From: Eledone cirrhosa
Taxonomy: Eukaryota
Assembly (NCBI GenBank): GCA_964016885.1
Contig: OZ024747.1
Coordinates: 70,742,001 to 70,806,000 of the forward strand
DNA length: 64,000 nt
Reading direction: 5' to 3'
Of this stretch, positions 6,554-36,483 are shown in pieces; positions within the stretch are counted from its first letter, which is position 1, and the number at the start of each line of letters is the position of its first letter. A program made the position numbers and the translations under genes. The notes below the pieces were generated by a model that did no database searches, was not told the origin of the DNA, and saw only the letters and a program-made list of their open reading frames with translations.

Positions 6554-6844
6554 TATATATAGTGGTGAAACACCACGTGTTTATATCCGTAGTTAATAGA
6601 CCACTAAGTCCATGGGACAAGTTGGGATGCTTTGCTAATTTATTGTGAAACTAGCTTTATATATATATATATATATATATATATATATATATATATATAT
6701 ATATATATATATATATGTAGGAGGTGAGTTTTATTGTAGTACAATAAAGCAATGCAGATATCGGATAAGAAGCACTCTACAGTTTGTAGAACTGGAGTAT
6801 ACATAATATATAAGAACAAAAAATGGTTAAAAGAGTTCCATGTA

Positions 6845-6911
6845 TTTTATTATGTGCATTTCAAAAACAAATATCATGTTGCAATAATATTTGTGTTTTC
6901 ATCAGATAAAA
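6845..6911 (-). ncRNA. Type-I hammerhead ribozyme, PLE family A, left arm
   Basis: Reverse complement of 7042-7108. Confidence 0.85.
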
Positions 6912-7041
6912 CAGGAGAACATGATATGAAGGCTAAAAAACACTTGTGGATAGTGCAGTTTTAAATCAACATATATGGATATGTTGATTTAAAACTGCAC
7001 TATCCACAAGTGTTTTTTAGCCTTCATATCATGTTCTCCTG

Positions 7042-7108
7042 TTTTATCTGATGAAAACACAAATATTATTGCAACATGATATTTGTTTTTGAAATGCACA
7101 TAATAAAA
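7042..7108 (+). ncRNA. Type-I hammerhead ribozyme, PLE family A, right arm
   Basis: Stem I TTTTAT/ATAAAA; core CTGATGA (7048-7054); stem II AAAC-ACAAATATTA...TGATATTTGT-TTT; GAAA (7091-7094); minimal stem III ATG-CA-CAT; triplet AUA, predicted cut after 7102. Confidence 0.87.
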
Positions 7109-7401
7109 TACATGGAACTCTTTTAACCATCTTTTGTTCTTATATATATATATATATATATATATATATATATATATATATATATATATATATATATATA
7201 TATACATATATACATATATACATATGCATATTCGAACAGTGGTACCTGACATTGTCCAATATGTAGAATTCTTCTTAACTTATAACACGTTTATACCCTT
7301 TTTTCTGCTTCAAGGGGTTATATCCTGATTTATTCACAACTATCTTATCATGATAATTCATGCTCTGGTTTTTTGTTTTAAAGACAAAACACAGTTTCGT
7401 T

Positions 7402-7483
7402 ACACACACACACACACACACACACACACACACACACACACACACACACACACACACACACACACACACACACACATACACAC
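7402..7483. repeat. (CA)n microsatellite
   Basis: Direct reading. Confidence 0.95.
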
Positions 7484-9019
7484 ATATGACTTATATTAAA
7501 TTAATCCTTGACTAACCCTGATTTTATCTGTTGAATGTTCAAAATCATATGCATACGAGTACCTAAACAAACATGGGTGTGTGTGTGCTTAAATACTCAT
7601 GTGCAGGCATGTAAATGTGTATTTACATATTAGCAGATAAGTATCAGTGTCTATGTATTTATTCAAATACATGTATAAATATATATGTAGTATTATATAT
7701 ATGTTCTCAGACACATGCATATGCACATATATGCATATCTTGCTGTAGTTCTTTTTAGGACATTTATCAAGTTATTCATGTTGTGGTATACACAACAAGG
7801 ATCCAGATATATTTATCACGTTGGAATATATTTTTTTGTTTTACTAAATATAATCTGAGTAATATCCATGCTGGCTATCATCTAATTCTGTTGGAAACTT
7901 ATCAGCCTGCCTGTCAACCAGTCATGCTAGTAGTATTAAGAGCATAACTATGGAAGTTAGTAAAAACAGAGTAGATCTCTATCTCTTCATTCTTCCCCTT
8001 TCTCCTTCGCCAATTCTCTCTCTACTTCCATTTGTCTCTTCTTTCATATTCCTCTTAAAGTATCCTGGCACTTCACCCTCGTCCATCTGGCTGCAATCAT
8101 TCACAGTATTTTAGAAACATAATCTCCATTGAGTCCAGACTGTGATTCACTGGTGGAATTCATTACTGTTTAGGCTAGTCCTCTAATCACTGTGATCTGT
8201 TTTTGTGGAGACTGACTTCATGTTATGGGCCATTGATCTTCCACAGACTAAATAGGCTGAAACCTCTGTGTCCTGAGATGAATACAGAGTTTAATGGTAG
8301 CCACTACCATTACCCCCACCACCATCACCTCTAACACCCCCAACAACACCACTACCACAGAGAACACTATCACCACAACCATCAACAACAACCATTAAAA
8401 CAGCAAAAACAACACAAATATCAACTCCAGCACTCAACAGCAATCCCAATAAAATATACAGCAATCAGCACATTTTTTTAGTTGTTTTATTTTTTAAGAC
8501 TAGGAAGAAATCTTTCCTTGTCTATAATGAACATATCAATCTATCAGCAGAGAGGAAATAATAATACAGTTGAGTTTATGTGAATGAGCTTTGCTGGTGA
8601 GAATAAAAACTGATATCCATCACTGATAGTCAATGAGTAGGTTGGGATAAACAGCAGAGAGAAATAATCTAGAACTTATCAATAAAAACAAATGATTCCT
8701 GTAGAATATGGCAATAATATGAAGATGGATGTCGAAAAAATACGACCAAGGAAAGGATAATCTAATTTCTTTTTTCCCAAAGGATAATATTCAAGTATTC
8801 CTTAGGGTTTCGTTTTTCAACACATCATATACTAAGTCGTTTCCATCAATATTGAATATTTATTTACTCTGAGAAAGCAGCAGCCATATTATTCTATACT
8901 AGGTAGAGTTTAACTAGGTATTAAATCAAAGCAATAAGTATATATATTTTAATTGTAGTTTGTGTAGTCTGTAGACACACAAGAGATGTAGTGAAATAAC
9001 AGGTAAACAGAGAGGAAAT

Positions 9020-9530
9020 TAAATGTGTATACAGTTGATGCACAGGTGTAGTCAACAGTAAGAATACCCAAAAGATAAACTATCAGATCTACAAAAGGAG
9101 CACTAAAAGTTGGAGAAAAGTTTTGCTGTCTAGGATATATCATTGGTAGTGAAGGTGGATGTACCAAAAGTGTTATAGCCAGAGAGAGAACAGGGGAAAA
9201 GAAGTTCAGGATGGTATTAGTAGTGGAAATAAAGGATATCTCTCTTACAGATGAATGGTAGACTGTATGAAGTCTGTCTGCAAATTGCAATGCTACATAT
9301 CAGTGAAACATTGACATTGGCTGCAAAAGACTTGCAAAGGCTACAAAGATGTGAAGCAAGTATGCTCTGGTGGATGTGTAATATTAGTCTTCATGAATGA
9401 TGTAGCATGAGGAATTAGATGATGTTGTGTTGAGTCAGTAGCTGAAAATATTTCTAGTGCTGATGCCATTAAAAATGCACCCAGTACACCCTGTAAGGTG
9501 GTTGGTGATAGAAAGTACATCCCACTGTAT
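9020..9530 (+). mobile_element. Highly degenerate RTE LINE 3' fragment
   Basis: Relics of F.YLGD..GGC, LH.SETW and EASML.WMCN, plus the GGTTGGTG.TAG.AAG tail motif. Confidence 0.65.
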
Positions 9531-10954
9531 TTTAGGGAGAGAGGGCTTATAGCATCTCACTTAATATTCTCTGACATACTGAACCATATAAAATGAATAT
9601 GAAATAAATTATATACATAAAAAAGTGGGAGAGGTGTAGAATAATTGGTATATCTCCATCAAGCTAAGATCACAGTGTAGTATCAATCAGTAGTTGAAAC
9701 ATTTTTAGTTTACTTATGCTCCTTGGTAAACTTAATATGGTGGTTTGGAAGCCTTTAGCAGAGTTCATTATGTTCCAAGCATTCATGTTAGACATCCACT
9801 AATCACAGAAGCTCTGAAAAGTTTCATGGGCATTGCTTGTCTTTTTCTGACTGAGCATCTAAGAGAAAGGTATGAGTATCTTTCTACCCTCCTTTTAAAT
9901 ATAGGACCACATGTAAATAGCTACCATGGCTTTGATCCCTGGTTTCCTTCATCAGAGTTAGCCTGTGGGTAAACAAAAACAATGCACCCTATTTGTGAAA
10001 CTGAATATTATTATCCTCATAAAGTATATTGGATGTTTAATGCAACTTAAACTGATGGAGTTATTCTATTTGCAAGACTTATTTATTGTAGAATTCAATT
10101 TCAAAACTACAAACTAATGAAACATTCATTAAAATGCAGTGCCAGTAGCTGCCCAGAATAATGTAATGTACATATTCATGCTTCTTATTTTACAACCTAA
10201 TATATAGGAATATTAGAAGTTACCTGTCTTTGCCAAGAACATGGTTAAAACCAATGACATTATATAAACCAACAATCCTCTGGGTCTGACTCATTGGCCA
10301 GTACCCCTAACAACTCCCCTTTCTCTGTCTCTCATTGTCCAAACTTTGGTGCCAAAATAGCAAACCCTTAAACCATTCAGCTCCTCCGTCACTTTATCTA
10401 AGCAGAAGAAAGCAATTAGAATTTAAATGATGTATCATGCAATCAAATTACGGCACATTTTCTCTTATATCTAATTAAGATTGATTGAAACAGCAGAGTA
10501 GTCAATCAAAGGAATTATAATTCCAGCCTAGACTCCTTGCAATGTTTGTGTTTTCCAATATGTTAAAATATATTCACAGCATCTTGTTATCTAACAGAAA
10601 TGGTCAAAGCAAGATTACATTTCTTAATTATTTGTTGTACTGGTCAATTTAATTTACAATTGATTTATGTCTTCCGGCATTGAGAAATGTTGGAAGAAAT
10701 ACTCCAATCCATTACACTATATCGAAAGACATGCTTAGGCAATTTACTTTTGCACCATCAAAGGAAAATTAGAAACTTTAATTCCCTAATTCATTAAATT
10801 TACTTATTTTAATGGACAAGTAATAAATTACTTCATCAAATTGGTCTTGGTATTGAAACAAAGTAAACAGAAACTTTGAAAAACAATAAAGTTAAAAGTT
10901 GTCTGGCAAACCATTTGTGAGACAGTTGTATATTAATGTGATCTTGATATCAAA

Positions 10955-35094: not shown

Positions 35095-35134
35095 CCGAGC
35101 TGAAGATCGGCTAAGGTGAAACAATTGTTCTCGG
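35095..35134 (+). ncRNA. Minimal type-I hammerhead ribozyme, family C, right arm
   Basis: CCGAG-CTGAAGA-TCGGCTAAGGT-GAAA-CAATTG-TT-CTCGG. Stem I is perfect, stem III is the palindrome ACAATTGT and the triplet is GUU. Confidence 0.82.
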
Positions 35135-35404
35135 TATGGTGAACTAACTGTTGTGTAACCACTTCTACCTAACTCATCCCTTGGACTGAGTGCTCTACCA
35201 CTACGGATATTACCTTCCAGTGTTCCACCACTATATATATATATATATATATATATATATATATATATATATATGTATATAAATAATAAATCTGAAGAGG
35301 ACTCGATAAGGATTGTATATGTATAAGTGTATATAAAACCGTAGAGTAAGTATCTATTATTAGTAAAGATAAAATTTTTAAACTTTTATTTTTTAAGCTT
35401 TTAA

Positions 35405-35750
35405 TCATCATTTCATCATTCATTTCATTTTACGTCCGCTTATTCCCTGCTTGCAAAGGTGGGATGGGAACTGATGCTGGCTTGATTTCTACAGCTGGAT
35501 GCCCTTCCTAACACCAACCTCATTTACAGTGAGTGCTGGGTGCTTTTTTACCGTGACACCTCCACGACCACTTTACAGTGGAATGAGAGGGACCCCAGTC
35601 CTATCATCTCATTTCTACGGCTGAGTAAACTGGAGCAATGTGAAATAAAGTCTCTTGCTCAAGGAAACAACACATCACCCAGTCTGAGAATTGAACTCAC
35701 AACCTTTCGATTGCAAGGGCAATGCTCTAACCACTAAGCCATGTGCCTCC
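35405..35750 (-). mobile_element. tRNA-headed, RTE-tailed SINE
   Basis: Reverse-complement copy of 20-360. Confidence 0.9.
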
Positions 35751-35761
35751 AATTGGTACTA

Positions 35762-36135
35762 ATATGTATATATATATGTATAAATATAATATACATACAC
35801 ACACACACACACATTTATATATATATATAAATACATGTATATATGTATGTGTATGTATGTATATATATAAATATATATATATACATATACATATATATAT
35901 ACATATACATATATAAATATATATACATATATATATACATATACATATATACATATATATATACATATATATATACATATATATACATACATATACATAC
36001 ATATATATACACATACATATATATACATACATATATATGCATACATATATATACATACATATATATACATACATATATATGCATACATATATATGCATAC
36101 ATATATATACATACATATATATACATACATATATT
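35762..36135. repeat. TA/CA compound microsatellite
   Basis: Direct reading. Confidence 0.9.
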
Positions 36136-36145
36136 TTTTTTAAAC

Positions 36146-36238
36146 GATCGACTTTCGTCAAATCGGACCGAGGGAACAACGTTTCCGTTGGTCTTTCCAA
36201 TTGCTAATACTATCTATCGGTGGCAACTCCAGGTAGAA
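36146..36238 (-). mobile_element. Fragment of a second SINE family body
   Basis: Near-identical to 61446-61539. Confidence 0.75.
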
Positions 36239-36295
36239 ACATACATATATATACATATATATATATACATATATATATATATATATTTTTTTTAT

Positions 36296-36483
36296 ATATA
36301 GAAGAGCTTCTACGGGACTAGAACTGCTTCATTTGTGAGAAATCATCAGGAAGCTCTGATGATTTCTCACGAATGAAACAGTTCTAGTCCTGTAGAATCT
36401 GTTCTATATGAAAACATTTATACTCTGCTATGTATGGAGTACCTTACTTACTGTGGTTACCTCCGATTCAACCCAGAATAACT
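36296..36483. mobile_element. Fold-back mini-element family D (arms 36296-36349 and 36356-36409, tail 36410-36483) with hammerhead core relic
   Basis: 54-bp inverted arms and loop GAAGCT. The right arm starts CTGATGA-TTTC-TCAC-GAAT-GAAAC. TA-flanked. Confidence 0.8.

What the first reader, a model, noticed from the sequence alone, without database searches (positions are those of the whole stretch)
6717..36483. One shared architecture in four unrelated sequences: (TA)n-embedded fold-back mini-elements with hammerhead ribozymes and a one-sided tail
Seen: 6717-7146, 28647-29412, 34990-35231 and 36296-36483 share no obvious sequence, yet all read (TA)n-arm'-loop of 3-21 nt-arm-unique tail of 60-95 bp-(TA)n. 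All have a CUGANGA...GAAA hammerhead motif in at least one arm, pointing outward from the loop. Two are the 3' ends of PLEs in this window. Established: Penelope-like elements carry minimal type-I hammerheads in their pseudo-LTRs and form inverted, truncated insertions with a tail. Inference: these are minimal, non-coding products of a common PLE integration route at (TA)n, probably with cDNA snap-back. At this density they may form a genome-wide class of ribozyme-bearing hairpin loci. Transcription in either direction would meet a sense hammerhead in the two-ribozyme units and form long dsRNA, a substrate for ADAR or Dicer. Mismatches and a deletion between arms argue against read chimeras.
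Basis: partly seen in the sequence, partly recalled or inferred. Interest (0 to 1): 0.88.

Follow-up and report, generated by a model that had tools for sequence, protein, structure and literature searches.

The report
Head-to-head Penelope retrotransposon stubs with hammerheads
The four hairpin-shaped stretches are real; two are doubled copies of the ends of Penelope-like jumping genes in the same window and the other two likely are too, and they likely arise as insertion by-products when the element's enzyme copies one RNA end from both strands of a TA repeat, a layout already described for these elements.

Summary
The architecture is real: four fold-backs (arms 54-470 nt, loops 3-21 nt), one end on (TA)n, a 61-96 nt tail on the other. 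A is the 3' end of a Hydra-clade Penelope-like element (PLE) at 24297-27562; B that of a Neptune/Nematis-type PLE at 368-1406. C and D have no parent here but carry Hydra-type hammerheads. Only 4 of 8 arms hold a complete hammerhead (none in D), and read-through RNA is predicted to zip into the hairpin, so the ribozymes in A and C would not fold. Head-to-head inverted truncated copies, a one-sided tail, (TA)n targeting, opposite-strand hammerhead pairs and self-priming are all in print. Public runs add something: family A's arm and tail are about 14-34 times deeper than its ORF, arm:tail is near 2:1, and 12 of 15 shown joints end the arm at 24447-24457, which is A's own hinge. Copies whose TA-side arm outruns the tail side favour priming from both target strands over snap-back. 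A's loop was not seen in reads. Verdict: new members of a known kind, with a testable mechanistic lead.

The parts
6717..6812 (-). Locus A tail (96 nt with the shared TATATA), ends CCTCCTAC|(TA)n
   Evidence: 99% to 27467-27562; arm-to-tail joint 24297/27469 in 1180 reads from 28 starts in X16
6813..6974 (-). Locus A tail-side arm: PLE 3' end
   Evidence: 94% to 24297-24457
6843..6913 (-). Type I hammerhead, C3 6905, H17 6851, helix I 8 bp, long helix II
6975..6978 (.). Locus A hinge ATGG, at the family's preferred arm boundary (24457, CATATG palindrome in the parent)
6979..7140 (+). Locus A TA-side arm, ends TTGTTCT|TATATA
   Evidence: 1 mismatch to the other arm; 95% to 24297-24457
7040..7110 (+). 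Type I hammerhead, C3 7048, H17 7102
24297..27466 (-). 5'-truncated Hydra-clade PLE body, parent family of A: RT 26456-27472, EN 25329-26540 (frameshifted), hammerhead C3 24389
   Evidence: DKT, YRDD, CxCx5C, CxxC, CxH match the Hydra description
27467..27562 (+). Inverted tail capping the 5' end of that element, with no arm copy
368..1406 (-). 3' part of a Neptune/Nematis-type PLE, parent family of B (GIY-YIG ORF 759-1406; hammerhead core decayed to CTAAAGA)
   Evidence: Pfam GIY-YIG E 3e-4, below the curated cut-off; CX4CxxC linker and C..C/H..H residues; 86% to B
28648..29117 (-). Locus B TA-side arm: last ORF codons plus 3' UTR
28801..28845 (-). Minimal type I hammerhead, C3 28840, extra G before G10.1-C11.1, helix II 6 bp, helix I 5 bp
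   Evidence: fits the PLE minimal hammerhead consensus
29118..29120 (.). Locus B hinge GCA, inside the ORF's last codons
29121..29351 (+). Locus B tail-side arm with a ~239-nt deletion that removes the hammerhead
29352..29412 (+). Locus B tail (61 nt)
34991..35066 (-). Locus C TA-side arm with a complete Hydra-type hammerhead (C3 35054, helix II only 2 bp)
35067..35087 (.). Locus C loop, 21 nt
35088..35163 (+). Locus C tail-side arm; hammerhead (C3 35100) with a G.G mismatch in helix II
35164..35231 (+). Locus C tail (68 nt)
   Evidence: 74% over 65 nt to 5278-5342
36296..36349 (-). Locus D TA-side arm; core starts at the hinge, GAAG for GAAA, no helix I
36356..36409 (+). Locus D tail-side arm; Hydra-type core without helix I
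36410..36483 (+). Locus D tail (74 nt)
4877..5342 (+). Inverted twin of 6562-7299; its (TA)n lacks locus A, so it serves as an in-window empty site
   Evidence: blocks 65/66 and 94/96 identical

Best explanation
The four loci are head-to-head doubled DNA ends set in TA repeats; two match Penelope-like retrotransposons in the window, the other two likely come from such elements, and they likely form when the element's enzyme primes copying from both strands of the cut repeat, once at the end of the tail and once just before it, both copies likely running back to the same RNA start and being joined. Shown: the anatomy, the parents of A and B, the arm-to-tail continuity of family A, the two outer end points, and a preferred inner boundary at 24447-24457. 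From the literature: a PLE protein cuts and extends both target strands, starts at two RNA sites that flank the tail, uses uncleaved RNA and is predicted to be a dimer. Inferred: if the tail-primed cDNA stops early, the product is an inverted tail plus body (24297-27562); if both cDNAs reach the RNA's 5' end, the product is a symmetric fold-back (A-D), joined through short palindromic microhomology. In family A that 5' end is probably the start of a transcript from the pLTR promoter, which would explain ORF-less units far outnumbering ORFs. The hammerheads are passengers.
For: Parents and empty site. The TA-side arm ends where the parent's 3' end does in A and B, with TATA/ATAT overlap in A, B and D but only T in C; joint 24297/27469 on opposite strands in 4 of 4 runs; 12 of 15 shown joints (87 not shown) run from 24447-24457 into the tail at 27467-27533, so the TA-side arm is whole while the tail side is shorter, which snap-back of the tail-primed cDNA cannot give; summed depth arm/tail 1.92 and 1.99, arm/median ORF bin 26 and 34 in X1 and X2, one sample. 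Frangieh 2024. Promoter inside the pLTR in D. virilis Penelope. Arms nearly identical in the youngest unit (1 of 162).
Against: No fold-back joint inside the arm was among the 15 joints shown, so A's own loop has no read support. Summed depth is not a copy number, and about a quarter of the depth at 24340 still reads on past the boundary at 24460 (390k of 1.53M in X1); raw RAD reads give arm/tail of about 0.8. The same joints would arise by deletion from the centre of a palindrome. B's hinge lies inside the ORF, so no promoter explains it. C and D have no parent in the window. A fold-back of an RTE 3' end next to (TA)n (56740-56862) shows that non-PLE DNA can form such structures here. The biochemistry comes from a Poseidon element, not Hydra or Neptune.
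Confidence: 0.55

Rival explanations
1. Same PLE origin, but one priming at the tail, then the cDNA folds back on itself and copies itself out to the TATA site. Unequal copies arise later by deletion from the palindrome centre.
For: Loops of 3-21 nt and symmetric arms in 4 of 4 loci; hinge at a CATATG palindrome in A's parent and a perfect palindrome at 33915-33952; self-priming inferred from junction palindromes in print.
Against: Needs a second event for the element at 24297-27562 (3.1 kb on the TA side, tail only on the other) and for the 12 arm-to-tail joints; 3 of those 12 and the element itself break at the arm/tail boundary, 27466-27470.
Confidence: 0.24
2. The whole hairpin plus tail is a non-autonomous element that is transcribed and copied as a unit by PLE proteins in trans.
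For: Fixed inner boundary, arm:tail near 2:1 and a large excess of ends over ORF in family A; non-autonomous PLE derivatives are known.
Against: Four loci, four sequences, none repeated as a unit in the window; junction letters differ among family-A joints (table 5c); whole-unit RNA folds at about -279 kcal/mol, a poor template; truncation falls on the inner, tail side and not at the outer end.
Confidence: 0.1
3. Simple arm-plus-tail PLE insertions were later duplicated in inverted form by DNA repair at a break in the neighbouring (TA)n.
For: Inverted duplications of non-PLE or flanking DNA abut (TA)n at 56740-56862 and 4877-7299; TATA microhomology at the arm ends of A, B, D.
Against: The duplicated part ends at the family's own 3' end in A and B, C has no such microhomology, and those other cases point inward, not outward.
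Confidence: 0.08
4. The fold-backs are assembly or read chimeras.
For: No read across any of the four loops was seen.
Against: Arms differ (1, 3 plus indels, 3 and 5 mismatches); A's hinge coincides with a joint hotspot in public runs; A sits in one of two 98%-identical twin sites.
Confidence: 0.03

Closest known systems
Inverted-pLTR plus tail structures of EN+ Penelope-like elements (Arkhipova 2013 PMC3846280; Craig 2021 PMC8557442)
   Same: 5'-truncated copy inverted head-to-head at the 5' end, palindrome at the junction, tail on one side, hammerhead in the repeat.
   Different: Here the ORF-bearing unit is absent and tails are 61-96 nt rather than 30-40 nt.
Hydra-clade PLEs (Craig 2021)
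   Same: DKT, CxCx5C, CxxC and CxH motifs; (TA)n insertion; hammerheads of the form ctga.gat...tgaa ac..gt t, as in C and D (File S2 rows).
   Different: The family-A hammerhead has a 15-bp helix II and is not the listed Hydra-1_oBim motif; no excess of ORF-less units or fixed hinge is noted in the parts I read.
PLE minimal hammerheads (Cervera and De la Pena 2014, PMC4209133)
   Same: Type I, tiny palindromic helix III, extra nucleotide before 10.1; 'dual min-HHRs 100-700 bp apart on opposite strands', ascribed to truncated PLEs.
   Different: That paper did not describe the arm-loop-arm-tail anatomy in the parts I read.
Poseidon PAc in vitro (Frangieh 2024, PMC11167929)
   Same: Two RT start sites flank the tail, both strands are cut and extended, AT-rich target, uncleaved RNA used.
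   Different: Inverted products and second-strand steps were not resolved; starts there are not homologous to the target, whereas three loci here show TATA overlap.
L1 twin priming (recalled, no call)
   Same: Both target strands prime and the cDNAs join head-to-head.
   Different: L1 products do not overlap; here both copies cover the same arm and both start sites are fixed.
Non-LTR retrozymes (bioRxiv 10.64898/2026.07.22.740005, abstract)
   Same: Non-coding, hammerhead-bearing, pLTR-related.
   Different: Retrozymes are head-to-tail tandems; these are single head-to-head pairs.

Membership tests
EN+ PLE truncated/inverted insertion | Sequence derives from the 3' end of an RT + GIY-YIG element | tested here: met
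   A and B; C and D in the next row
EN+ PLE truncated/inverted insertion | Parent element for C and D | tested here: inconclusive
   No parent in the window; hammerhead pattern matches Hydra rows by eye only
EN+ PLE truncated/inverted insertion | Inverted 5'-truncated copy adjacent at the 5' end | tested here: met
   4 of 4 loci
EN+ PLE truncated/inverted insertion | Tail on one side only, contiguous with the element's 3' end | tested here: met
   One-sided in 4 of 4; contiguity in other copies shown for family A only; longer than the published 30-40 nt
EN+ PLE truncated/inverted insertion | Target-site duplication | not testable with these tools
   Both flanks are (TA)n
Hydra-clade PLE (parent of A) | DKT; CxCx5C linker; no CCHH; CxxC and CxH around the conserved E and N; C-terminal EN; (TA)n target | tested here: met
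Hydra-clade PLE (parent of A) | Placement in the RT tree | not tested
   No named Hydra protein was held as a usable sequence; one search gave 2 unnamed relatives
Neptune/Nematis PLE (parent of B) | C-terminal GIY-YIG with CX2-5CxxC linker and CCHH | tested here: met
   the two clades are not told apart and no RT is present
Type I hammerhead ribozyme | Core plus helices I, II and III | tested here: inconclusive
   Complete in 4 of 8 arms, in neither arm of D
Type I hammerhead ribozyme | Match to Rfam hammerhead models | tested here: not met
   at E<=10; D was covered only
Type I hammerhead ribozyme | Self-cleavage | not testable with these tools
   Helix I probability 0 in read-through RNA of A and C, 0.2-0.5 in three of the four A and C transcripts from the loop to just past the site
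Non-LTR retrozyme | Head-to-tail tandem monomers | tested here: not met
   All four are single head-to-head pairs
Non-LTR retrozyme | Circular RNA intermediates | not testable with these tools
   No RNA run was available
MITE / foldback DNA transposon | Inverted repeats at both termini | tested here: not met
   One end is a tail and the arms are retroelement 3' ends
MicroRNA or hairpin-RNA gene | Family match or defined small-RNA product | tested here: inconclusive
   All Rfam miRNA hits shown lie below gathering scores; small RNAs untested

The most novel reading that the evidence does not exclude
A Hydra-clade PLE has spawned a self-propagating, ORF-less hairpin retroelement of about 430 nt with a fixed hinge, present in tens of thousands of copies and copied as a unit in trans, making (TA)n-targeted perfect hairpins a major genomic source of dsRNA for editing and small RNAs.
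Probability: 0.1. Interest if true: 0.68.

Novelty: new member of a known kind. Interest (0 to 1): 0.32.

Why it matters
How PLEs make their inverted structures and tails is named as open in Craig 2021. A family with two fixed start sites, a preferred hinge and very many short copies is good material for telling double priming from snap-back by counting junctions in one genome, and it predicts an RNA 5' end at 24457. If transcribed, such units would be a large pool of perfect hairpins. The architecture itself is already described, and these loci are most likely inert by-products.

Tried and rejected
No whole genome is held, so no genome-wide fold-back census was possible. No RNA holder listed. 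The repeat finder was swamped by (TA)n and was replaced by masked BLAST and my own scan. Rfam gave only sub-threshold miRNA/snoRNA hits, which any long hairpin draws. Pfam gave nothing for the two ORFs at 25329-27472, the PDB search nothing relevant, the protein search 2 unnamed relatives among 2292 candidates. Three look-ups of earlier findings were empty. Tail folding showed no structure shared across families. Rejected: read chimera, MITE, retrozyme, microRNA gene; hinge at the hammerhead cleavage site (cores are kept inside the arms); an editing signature between arms (too few differences, mixed types). The chance figure for equal arm lengths is not used, because the loci were chosen for symmetry. 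The bioRxiv retrozyme paper was seen as abstract and outline only; its supplements and Frangieh's supplementary figures were not seen and may bear on novelty.
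Full report
Observation. The four loci (A 6717-7146, B 28647-29412, C 34990-35231, D 36296-36483) are real fold-backs. 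Arms differ by 1 of 162 (A), 3 of 76 (C) and 5 of 54 (D), and in B by 3 mismatches, a 2-nt indel and a deletion of about 239 nt. Loops are 4, 3, 21 and 6 nt; tails 96, 61, 68 and 74 nt. They share no sequence. In the masked window 6 ungapped fold-backs passed my threshold; 5 of 6 have (TA)4 within 9 nt of one outer end, against 1.6% of unmasked bases. The sixth (34339-34649) meets (CT)n(TA)n once its gapped arms are included, and B was missed through masking. A lies in a (TA)n between two blocks that have an inverted twin at 4877-5342 (65/66 and 94/96 identical); the twin lacks A, which argues for insertion as a unit.

Hammerheads. A type I descriptor found 5 sites in the window (7048+, 6905-, 24389-, 28840-, 35054-) against a mean of 0.02 in 100 block shuffles; it was written after I had seen the motifs, so this overstates significance somewhat. 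Only 4 of the 8 arms hold a complete motif. Both D arms begin at C3 and have no helix I, and one reads GAAG; C's right arm has a G.G in its 2-bp helix II; B's right arm lost the motif. Rfam scored none (none among 150 of 586 rows shown). B fits the published PLE minimal hammerhead. C and D show the U-flanked helix II, AC..GU helix III and U cleavage site seen in several Hydra-clade rows of Craig's File S2 (by eye). Because the cores point outward, a read-through transcript makes the antisense arm first: helix I probability was 0 for both arms of A and C in that context, 0.2-0.5 for three of those four when the RNA starts at the loop and ends just past the site, and 0.09-0.4 for B, whose partner segment is deleted (equilibrium folding).

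Parents. A's arm is 94-95% identical to the 3' end of the element at 24297-27562 (-), and A's tail is 98-99% identical to that element's other end, in inverted orientation. Its frameshifted ORFs carry DKT, YRDD, CxCx5C, a GIY-YIG-like core, CxxC and CxH, the Hydra-clade signature; that clade inserts into (TA)n and has hammerheads. B is 86% identical to the 3' end of the element at 368-1406, whose endonuclease has a CX4CxxC linker and C..C/H..H residues, a Neptune/Nematis type. B's hinge lies in the last codons of that ORF. C and D have no parent in the window; C's tail is 74% like 5278-5342.

Public runs. Fourteen listed runs hold the parent of A or part of it, none on record as RNA. I laid 4 of the 18 listed (X1 and X2, one sample; X5, another organism label; X16, raw RAD reads) at 85% likeness. 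The joint 24297/27469 on opposite strands, which is arm running straight into tail, is in all 4 runs (1180 reads, 28 starts in X16). Summed depth is 1.44M at the arm end and 0.75M on the tail in X1, against 5k-88k over 19 ORF bins: arm/tail 1.92 and 1.99, arm/median ORF 26 and 34, tail/median ORF 14 and 17 in X1 and X2. The tool warns that such sums are not copy numbers; X16 gives arm/tail of about 0.8. Of 15 joints shown (87 hidden), 12 leave the arm at 24447-24457 and enter the tail at 27467-27533: 3 at the arm/tail boundary, 9 inside the tail. In table 5c, 5 of 12 rows shown (103 hidden) leave at 24455-24457, with 2-12 extra letters, mostly the last letters of a second arm. Position 24457 is A's hinge. 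Against this: no fold-back joint inside the arm was among the rows shown, and a quarter of the depth at 24340 still continues past 24460, so many copies are longer. Direct read support for the four loops was not obtained.

Mechanism. Each family-A unit has two fixed outer ends on (TA)n: the arm end at TTATATA and the tail end. In vitro, a Poseidon PLE protein cuts and extends both target strands, starts at two RNA sites that delimit the tail, uses uncleaved RNA, gives shorter products with 5'-shortened RNA, and is predicted to be a dimer. I infer that both strands prime, one at each site. If the tail-primed cDNA stops at or before the second site, the product is inverted tail plus body, as at 24297-27562 and in the 12 joints. 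If both reach the 5' end of the same RNA, the product is symmetric, as in A-D, joined through a short palindrome (CATATG in A's parent, TA in B). Snap-back of one cDNA explains the symmetric units equally well but cannot make a TA-side arm longer than the tail side without a later deletion; deletion from a palindrome centre would give such joints, so it stays the main rival. The fixed boundary is probably a transcription start: D. virilis Penelope is transcribed from inside its pLTR, and 24457 is the A of TCATAT, initiator-like by recalled consensus. Starting at the 5'-proximal tail of such an RNA would yield ORF-less units. This step is untested and does not cover B. Confidence: PLE by-products about 0.9; double priming 0.55, snap-back 0.24, amplifying hairpin 0.10, DNA repair 0.08, artefact 0.03.

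What is known. Arkhipova 2013 (PMC3846280, passages) describes inverted pLTRs, a 31-bp tail on one of them, abundant head-to-head repeats with palindromes at the junction, and infers self-priming. Cervera 2014 (PMC4209133, parts 1-2 of 4) reports dual minimal hammerheads 100-700 bp apart on opposite strands, ascribed to truncated PLEs, with low activity. Craig 2021 (PMC8557442; abstract, passages, sections 11 and 15, four supplement look-ups counted by the tool) gives the inverted truncated copy, one-sided tail and (TA)n bias as general PLE features and calls their formation open. Very short PLE insertions (median 128 bp) occur in Chlamydomonas (PMC9977147, passages). Frangieh 2024 was read in parts 1-2 of 4, Schostak 2008 and PMC8969392 as passages, the retrozyme preprint as abstract and outline. 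L1 twin priming is recalled. Eight searches showed no listing that applies twin priming to PLE fold-backs or reports a fixed hinge with such an excess of ends; 'twin priming' had 0 occurrences in the PLE papers listed. The library lacks most subscription papers, including Arkhipova 2006, so this is weak.

Verdict. Real, and new members of a known kind. The fixed hinge, the excess of ends and the unequal copies are a modest, testable lead on an open mechanism. Interest 0.32.

Noticed in passing
window 34293-34649 and 34074-34230: A fifth unit with the same anatomy: (TA)n, 46-nt tail, arms of about 155 nt (86%), short loop, then (CT)n(TA)n; no hammerhead core; a third, 75% copy of the arm lies 260 nt upstream.
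   Followed up: partly
window 33915-33952: Perfect 19+19 nt palindrome with no loop, directly on (TA)n, unique sequence beyond; possibly a very short unit of the same kind.
   Followed up: partly
window 56740-56862: 3' end of an RTE-like LINE with its (TTCTA)n run followed by an inverted 47-nt copy and then (TA)n; arms point inward, unlike A-D.
   Followed up: partly
window 4877-7299: Inverted duplication of two blocks separated by (TA)n, 98% identical, enclosing a 1.2-kb centre with a LINE RT fragment (5448-6476); the inner block resembles C's tail. Origin unexplained.
   Followed up: partly
window 19752-20121: Older, diverged fold-back (66% overall, outer 60 nt close) with TA-rich sequence at its right end; 19849-19877 recurs exactly at 23020-23048.
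   Followed up: no
window 14138-16945, 58583-61386 and 62102-64000: RTE-type LINE copies (RT plus PHD-like finger); the first two are 94-95% identical in inverted orientation, the third 74%.
   Followed up: no
window 11465-13060: Fragments that read like an RT and a restriction-like endonuclease of a non-LTR element (by eye; Pfam gave no hit).
   Followed up: no
window 20-336, 35430-35750, 58166-58487: A 320-nt SINE-like repeat, 92-93% among copies; a 94-nt unit at 36145-36238 recurs at 61446-61539 joined to part of it.
   Followed up: no
window 27510-27533: Nine of the 12 arm-to-tail joints enter the tail here, at or just before a 9-bp hairpin (27531-27549), suggesting a stop point for tail-primed copying.
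   Followed up: no
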